NCBI RefSeq assembly: GCF_964213995.1
Contig: NC_135830.1
Span: 16,492,001-16,556,000 of the forward strand
DNA: 64,000 bases
Reading direction: 5' to 3'
From: Mustelus asterias
Lineage: Eukaryota
Position 1 is the first letter of the stretch. Every line of letters starts with the position of its first letter. The translations under genes were made by a program, and so were the position numbers. The notes below the pieces were generated by a model. The model made no database searches. It was not told where the DNA came from and saw only the letters and a program-made list of their open reading frames with translations. Of the stretch, positions 22,678 through 22,764 are shown in pieces.

Positions 22678-22764
22678 GGGCTTGTTCAGGATTTGAACCC
22701 GGGACCTCCTGCAAGCTTGGGGATTTTAACACCCAAAGTGAGAACACCCCTCGACCAACAAGCT
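22678..22764 (-). pseudogene. Intron-containing tRNA-Pro(TGG) pseudogene
   Basis: AGCTTGTTGGTCGAGGGGTGTTCTCACTT-TGG-G [TGTTAAAATCCCCAAGCT, 22714-22731] TGCAGGAGGTCCCGGGTTCAAATCCTGAACAAGCCC, with a 3-nt D-arm deletion. Confidence 0.8.

What the first reader, a model, noticed from the sequence alone, without database searches (positions are those of the whole stretch)
22678..22764. Intron-containing tRNA-Pro(TGG) lineage
Seen: a tRNA-Pro body with an 18-nt insert exactly after position 37, the canonical TSEN intron site. The insert contains CCCAA, complementary to the anticodon loop TTGGG, as in true pre-tRNA introns. The paralog at 9444-9533 carries a homologous 18-nt insert. Known: the usual vertebrate intron-bearing isotypes are Tyr-GTA, Ile-TAT, Leu-CAA and Arg-TCT; Pro introns are typical of yeasts. 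Inference: both copies here are decayed but imply a functional intron-containing tRNA-Pro family in sharks, either a lineage-specific gain or a retained ancestral state.
Basis: partly seen in the sequence, partly recalled or inferred. Interest (0 to 1): 0.7.

Follow-up and report, generated by a model that had tools for sequence, protein, structure and literature searches.

The report
Shark proline tRNA genes with introns
The flagged stretch is a broken copy of a proline tRNA gene with a short insert at the standard tRNA-intron site; this genome, likely a shark's, holds about 240 matches to such genes, many intact and likely spliced by the ordinary tRNA-splicing enzyme, which would add proline to the four intron-bearing tRNA types listed for humans.

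Summary
Confirmed. Window 22678-22764(-) is a decayed tRNA-Pro(TGG) with an 18-nt insert exactly at 37/38; the paralog at 9444-9533 has a homologous one. It belongs to a genome-wide family: 242 pattern matches with 13-18-nt inserts (TGG, AGG, CGG) against 13 without. Many insert-bearing genes have exons identical to the intronless genes while their flanks and inserts have diverged. The anticodon-intron pair is kept in 31 of 35 distinct inserts, and the base opposite the wobble position follows the anticodon. One intronless tRNA-LINE chimera carries the 43-nt trailer of an insert-bearing subfamily and an exact exon junction, likely a fossil of a spliced transcript. Arg-TCG genes also carry inserts; Arg-ACG genes mostly do not. 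No RNA evidence; gain versus retention is unresolved. This scan found the family before, in this genome and in other genomes. [quoted passage not shown] New member of a known kind; interest 0.45.

The parts
22678..22764 (-). decayed intron-bearing tRNA-Pro(TGG) gene (likely pseudogene)
   Evidence: 9 substitutions and a 3-nt D-arm deletion against intact L257
22732..22764 (-). exon 1 (positions 1-37; 33 nt after the deletion); anticodon TGG at 22735-22733
22714..22731 (-). 18-nt insert at the 37/38 site; 15 of 18 identical to the insert of intact gene L257; G at -3 can pair with U32
22678..22713 (-). exon 2 (position 38 to discriminator)
9444..9533 (-). second decayed copy; anticodon and T arm mutated
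9480..9497 (-). homologous 18-nt insert of the second copy
22564..24085 (.). duplicated block (matches 9330-10847 at 84.5%); 22581-23796 aligns at about 72% to the flanks of intact intron-bearing TGG genes elsewhere in the genome

Best explanation
The flagged copy is a broken member of a large family of proline tRNA genes whose 13-18-nt insert at position 37/38 is likely a true tRNA intron, cut out by TSEN and joined by RTCB to give a normal tRNA-Pro. Shown: the position and size of the insert, the family and its copy numbers, intact exons in many copies, anticodon-intron pairing, and one intronless chimera with the trailer of an intron-bearing subfamily. Inferred: transcription by Pol III (from tRNA-SINE/LINE chimeras that keep only a few nt of leader and a short trailer), splicing, and that the flagged lineage died after segmental duplication within tRNA arrays (birth-and-death evolution). 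A few intronless single-copy genes (7 perfect) exist alongside, so proline decoding would not depend wholly on splicing.
For: Counts at equal stringency: 95 + 53 TGG and 94 AGG/CGG matches with insert (controls 0, 1, 0) vs 13 without. 19 of 87 distinct pattern- or region-fetched insert genes have 0 mismatches at the 55 unconstrained exon sites; 10 of the first 50 pattern loci. Within subfamilies, exon vs upstream divergence: AGG18 0.022 vs 0.124; CGG18 0.023 vs 0.090; TGG-A 0.098 vs 0.172; TGG-B 0.065 vs 0.133; short 0.073 vs 0.181. Intact TGG-A genes share about 1.25 kb of flank with the window copy at about 72% yet keep exons identical to intronless genes. Pairing at 32, 33, 34, 35 in 31, 34, 32, 35 of 35 distinct inserts; shuffle means 13-19, 0 of 2000 reach it. 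The base opposite position 34 is T in 15 of 15 AGG18, A in 16 of 16 TGG18 and G in 4 of 5 CGG18 inserts. Chimera at G000:C3:136.70 Mb: exact exon junction, trailer up to 38 of 43 identical to the TGG-B subfamily, then a 5'-truncated LINE (RVT_1), with an unrelated 5' flank. Of 19 genome matches to that trailer, all 16 full array genes have the insert. None of the other 24 intronless junction matches has this trailer. Defining features of eukaryotic tRNA introns taken from PMC10275265 (passages).
Against: No RNA read shows a precursor, an excised intron or a spliced product. Mature tRNA from most insert genes would be identical to that of the intronless genes. Most copies are damaged (40 of 104 have 4 or more mismatches), and decayed copies keep the -3 purine just as often (32 of 34), so that feature may be inherited, not currently selected. 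The CGG18 subfamily has U at -3 (no anticodon-intron pair), and many TGG genes lack a T4 terminator within 30 nt. Free folding recovered the cloverleaf and helix poorly (z -0.4 to -2.5). The wobble covariation rests on only 3-5 lineages, and the divergence pairs are not independent. The spliced chimera is one event. It lies 5.5 Mb from the intronless TGG cluster on C3, in the zone where copies of those intronless genes gather, so a template switch, gene conversion or a lost intronless source could also explain it. Target-site duplications were not checked. Matches include near-identical duplicates on small contigs, so they overstate gene number.
Confidence: 0.85

Rival explanations
1. The insert-bearing genes are all non-functional. 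An insertion into one gene was amplified with the tRNA arrays, and the exons look intact only because copies are young or are homogenised by gene conversion from intronless genes.
For: Intact intronless genes exist for all three anticodons. Many copies are decayed, and copies sit in recently duplicated units at 92-100% identity. No RNA evidence.
Against: At least five insert subfamilies with unlike sequences all sit exactly at 37/38. Exons diverge 1.8-5.6 times less than alignable upstream DNA. The wobble-opposite base tracks the anticodon. Arg-TCG shows the same site and pairing (7 of 8 distinct inserts). The spliced chimera argues against it.
Confidence: 0.07
2. The genes are transcribed and kept for a role other than supplying tRNA (Pol III promoter or boundary function, or small RNAs from precursors or introns), with little splicing.
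For: Chimeras that keep the insert are common: 10 of 22 dispersed copies run into a SINE head. Only one spliced chimera was found, so unspliced precursors were abundant when captured. Some subfamilies have weak terminators or no anticodon-intron pair.
Against: Conservation covers the acceptor stem and the whole exon, not only the A and B boxes. Capture of trailer-bearing precursors favours early, unspliced forms anyway (inference).
Confidence: 0.08

Closest known systems
Human/mouse TSEN-spliced tRNA families Tyr(GUA), Ile(UAU), Leu(CAA), Arg(UCU) (PMC10275265, passages)
   Same: Intron at 37/38, short, pairing with the anticodon loop, U32/C32 paired with the antepenultimate purine; mixed intron-bearing and intronless members, as in human Arg(UCU) and Leu(CAA).
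   Different: The isotypes here are Pro (UGG, AGG, CGG) and Arg(UCG), not among the four listed. Insert-bearing matches outnumber intronless ones about 19 to 1. Some inserts are 13 nt, just under the 14-60 nt quoted for yeast.
Yeast tRNA-Pro(UGG) intron (PMC13079951, passages) and Pro genes with 37/38 inserts in metagenome contigs
   Same: Same isotype and site; the metagenome inserts mostly carry a complement of the anticodon loop (by eye).
   Different: Yeast introns are 30-33 nt. The metagenome genes differ from this genome's exons at 6-12 sites (one outlier at 24), so they are not vertebrate-type; fungal origin is my guess. No sequence homology of the inserts was shown.
[quoted passage not shown]
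   Same: [quoted passage not shown]
   Different: The passages read name no isotype, give no intron structure and no splicing evidence. Fig. 3A and the supplements could not be seen and may list the isotypes.
tRNA/LINE-1 chimeric insertions (PMC13174262, passages)
   Same: Small RNA fused 5' of a truncated LINE in one insertion.
   Different: The human cases are mostly antisense tRNA halves. Here they are sense, full-length precursors with leader and trailer, fused to a SINE or a LINE.

Membership tests
Canonical eukaryotic tRNA intron (TSEN/RTCB) | Located between N37 and N38 | tested here: met
Canonical eukaryotic tRNA intron (TSEN/RTCB) | Short (about 14-60 nt in yeast) | tested here: met
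   13-18 nt; only 6-18 nt was searched in the genome
Canonical eukaryotic tRNA intron (TSEN/RTCB) | Anticodon-intron pair, Y32 with the antepenultimate purine | tested here: met
   31 of 35 distinct inserts of near-perfect genes, and the window copy; not met in the 4 CGG18 inserts
Canonical eukaryotic tRNA intron (TSEN/RTCB) | Complementarity to N33-N35 (bulge-helix-loop) | tested here: met
   34, 32, 35 of 35; free folding weak
Canonical eukaryotic tRNA intron (TSEN/RTCB) | Intact mature tRNA domain | tested here: met
   met for 19 of 87 family members with 0 mismatches
Canonical eukaryotic tRNA intron (TSEN/RTCB) | Precise excision and ligation in vivo | tested here: inconclusive
   one intronless chimera with an intron-family trailer; no RNA data
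Canonical eukaryotic tRNA intron (TSEN/RTCB) | Cleavage by TSEN | not testable with these tools
   needs in-vitro assay
Functional tRNA gene (the flagged copy itself) | Intact D arm and anticodon stem | tested here: not met
   3-nt D-arm deletion, two anticodon-stem mismatches

The most novel reading that the evidence does not exclude
Cartilaginous fishes run a two-tier proline (and Arg-UCG) tRNA supply that mammals lack. A handful of dispersed intronless genes sits beside large arrays of intron-bearing genes of all three Pro anticodons, expressed in the germ line, so that bulk proline tRNA is gated by TSEN/RTCB. The introns would be either a vertebrate gain or an ancient state lost in bony vertebrates, and the C3 chimera would be a genomic fossil of their splicing.
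Probability: 0.3. Interest if true: 0.7.

Novelty: new member of a known kind. Interest (0 to 1): 0.45.

Why it matters
Reviews list four intron-bearing tRNA families in humans and treat the set as stable. Two more isotypes in a jawed vertebrate, with intron-bearing and intronless genes of identical mature sequence side by side, would give a natural system for dating tRNA intron gain or loss and for asking what introns do (intron-dependent anticodon modification, tissue-specific supply). [quoted passage not shown] The mechanism itself is ordinary, and tRNAscan-type annotation would list these genes.

Tried and rejected
ARAGORN labels (Gln, Leu, Ala) for insert-bearing Pro copies are register errors. 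Free folding of five precursors was uninformative. Sequencing-run search with the C19 AGG locus: 21 rows; RNA or RNA-guessed rows held only 0.05-0.07 of the words, about what the shared exons would give, and none was laid, so there is no expression evidence. Four other labelled organisms held 0.19-0.28. Laying the upstream flank on four of these runs showed one contig of organism E covering 261 nt with 12 differences and no cover of that part in B, C and D, which proves nothing. No reads were laid on a gene body, so whether other species carry the inserts, and whether they are spliced, stays open. A search for spliced Arg-TCG chimeras gave 2 matches: the intact intronless gene and one decayed copy without an intron-family trailer. 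No chimera of the C19 AGG pair was found among 25 junction matches. Ten literature searches (listings only, apart from the passages cited) found no paper naming Pro or Arg-UCG introns in a vertebrate. The review 10.1002/wrna.1583 was not held, and GtRNAdb tables and preprint supplements could not be seen; any of these may already list them. PMC4090602, PMC8450103, PMC11408192, PMC13578239, PMC4536317, PMC6614914 and PMC10485636 were seen as passages only and gave no such list. A one-off insertion into a pseudogene was rejected (see rivals).

Full report
Observation. On the minus strand, window 22764-22678 reads as a tRNA-Pro(TGG) gene with 18 extra bases (22714-22731) directly after G37. Compared with an intact gene from elsewhere in the genome (L257), its exons have 9 substitutions and a 3-nt deletion in the D arm, so it is very likely dead. 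Its insert matches that of L257 at 15 of 18 sites (my count). The second copy (9444-9533) has a homologous insert at 9480-9497 and is also broken. Both lie in a tRNA-rich duplicated block. The unit around the flagged copy recurs at 92-100% identity over about 3 kb in 22 other fetched loci.

The family. Exact 17-base patterns bracketing the insertion site gave 95 TGG matches with 17-18-nt inserts, 53 TGG matches with 13-15-nt inserts and 94 AGG or CGG matches (about 68 and 26 by hand count). The reversed controls gave 0, 1 and 0. The same pattern without an insert gave 13 matches, 7 of them perfect genes with a T4 or longer terminator; a relaxed pattern gave 25. Inserts over 18 nt were not searched. 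Matches are not gene numbers, since many lie on small contigs in near-identical units. The inserts fall into at least five subfamilies with unlike sequences. Following a lead from earlier notes, Arg-TCG gave 35 matches, 1 without insert; of 20 fetched, 17 are insert-bearing tRNA genes, 1 is intronless and 2 are not tRNAs. As a control, 81 of the first 100 of 130 matches for the other Arg anticodons lack an insert, including all those on the array contigs. The 19 with inserts were not inspected, and the reversed control gave 11. Neighbouring Gln, Lys, Asn, Thr and other genes had no insert. Other isotypes were not surveyed genome-wide.

Are they alive? Of 87 distinct pattern- or region-fetched genes, 19 match the intronless gene at all 55 exon sites that the pattern did not fix. 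Within subfamilies, exons diverge 1.8 to 5.6 times less than the alignable 60 nt upstream. Intron divergence in that table is inflated because the 20 loci were picked for distinct inserts, and the pairs are not independent. Intact TGG genes share about 1.25 kb of flank with the window copy at about 72% identity but keep unchanged exons, which is what purifying selection on a spliced product predicts. Two AGG genes on C19 share a private exon-1 variant, have unlike inserts and have T4 or longer terminators. Against this, 40 of 104 distinct genes have four or more mismatches, and many TGG genes lack T4 within 30 nt.

Intron anatomy. PMC10275265 (passages) defines eukaryotic tRNA introns by the 37/38 site, pairing with N33-N35, and a pair between C/U32 and the antepenultimate purine. 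Among 35 distinct inserts of near-perfect genes, positions 32-35 pair in 31, 34, 32 and 35 cases, beyond all 2000 shuffles; position 36 pairs in only 8. The base opposite the wobble position is T in AGG genes (15 of 15 in the 18-nt subfamily), A in TGG genes (16 of 16) and G in the C85 CGG genes (4 of 5); this reflects only a few lineages, and the short subfamily is mixed. The CGG subfamily lacks the 32 pair. Seven of 8 distinct Arg-TCG inserts keep it. Decayed copies keep the -3 purine too (32 of 34), so it does not by itself show present selection.

Fossils of transcripts. Ten of 22 insert-bearing copies on the largest contigs run into a SINE head within 60 nt, against 1 of 40 on the array contigs. 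Those inspected keep only a few bases of leader and trailer, as expected for reverse-transcribed precursors (inference; compare PMC13174262, passages). One copy at G000:C3:136.70 Mb has an exact exon 1-exon 2 junction, then 43 nt up to 38/43 identical to the trailer of the TGG-B subfamily, then a 5'-truncated LINE (RVT_1 E 5.6e-11). Its 5' flank is unrelated beyond about 4 nt. A search by that trailer alone gave 19 matches: 16 array genes, all with the insert; this chimera; an inverted twin beside it that begins at position 38; and a truncated SINE chimera whose trailer ends at the same T-rich point. None of the other 24 intronless matches carries this trailer (two long scores there come from the shared SINE). 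The simplest reading is capture of a spliced, not yet 3'-trimmed precursor. It is a single event, and it lies 5.5 Mb from the intronless TGG cluster, in the zone where decayed copies of those genes gather, so template switching, conversion or a lost intronless source remain possible. I put the splicing reading at about 0.65.

What could not be shown. No RNA run held the locus beyond what shared exons would give, and no reads were laid on a gene body, so expression, splicing and presence of the inserts in other species are open. One other labelled organism holds the upstream flank of a C19 gene at about 95%. Pro genes with 37/38 inserts are common in metagenome contigs (121 stretches, scan cut at its limit), but their exons differ from this genome's at 6-12 sites, with one outlier. 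Yeast Pro(UGG) has an intron (PMC13079951, passages). The site is thus an old or easily filled one, and this does not decide gain versus retention in sharks.

Prior knowledge. [quoted passage not shown] Ten paper searches found nothing naming Pro or Arg-UCG introns in a vertebrate. Eight earlier notes of this scan describe the same family, two in this genome; they are unchecked AI notes and not counted as support.

Verdict. The flagged copy is likely a pseudogene. The family it comes from is real and very likely spliced by the ordinary pathway (0.85). New member of a known kind; interest 0.45.

Noticed in passing
G000 C3:128-147 Mb, C4:147.2-147.8 Mb, C10:112-121 Mb, C17:70.9-72.2 Mb (L358-L382): Decayed intronless Pro copies, mostly tRNA + short trailer + SINE or other sequence, gather near the intact source genes: 17 of 18 lie on the same contig within 14 Mb, 12 within 1.2 Mb. 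This suggests local capture of nascent pre-tRNA during retrotransposition, which may be a finding of its own.
   Followed up: partly
L267-L281 (C85, C102 and others); L265 (C24): Arg-TCG genes carry 13-18-nt inserts at 37/38 in nearly all matches; only one intact intronless gene was found.
   Followed up: yes
L242:4178-6030 (G000:C19:64.52 Mb): Divergent pair of intact intron-bearing Pro-AGG genes with a shared private exon-1 variant and unlike introns; the best target for a diagnostic splicing test.
   Followed up: partly
L249:7543-7633: Pro-CGG gene inside the TGG-B subfamily (same flanks and insert): likely a recent anticodon switch whose insert has not compensated.
   Followed up: no
window 16342-16436 (-): Intron-bearing tRNA that reads as Ile-TAT (ARAGORN with introns; mislabelled Tyr), one of the standard vertebrate intron families.
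   Followed up: no
window 30097-30394 (-) and 6571-6774 (-): Full-length metazoan SRP RNA gene (225.6 bits) and a U2 snRNA fragment with a repeated 5' part.
   Followed up: no
window 5997-6068, 11592-11673, 12298-12369, 20243-20301, 24950-25031, 26615-26686, 36681-36739: Gln, Leu-AAG, Glu-TTC and Asn-like tRNA genes, some intact and some decayed, in a unit duplicated at an offset of about 13-14 kb.
   Followed up: no
L326:795-1148 and 1440-1474: Inverted twin (96%) of the spliced chimera starting exactly at tRNA position 38, and a 35-nt palindrome at the chimera's 5' end; would fit a reverse-transcription stop at the splice site or at a modified G37 (recalled).
   Followed up: partly
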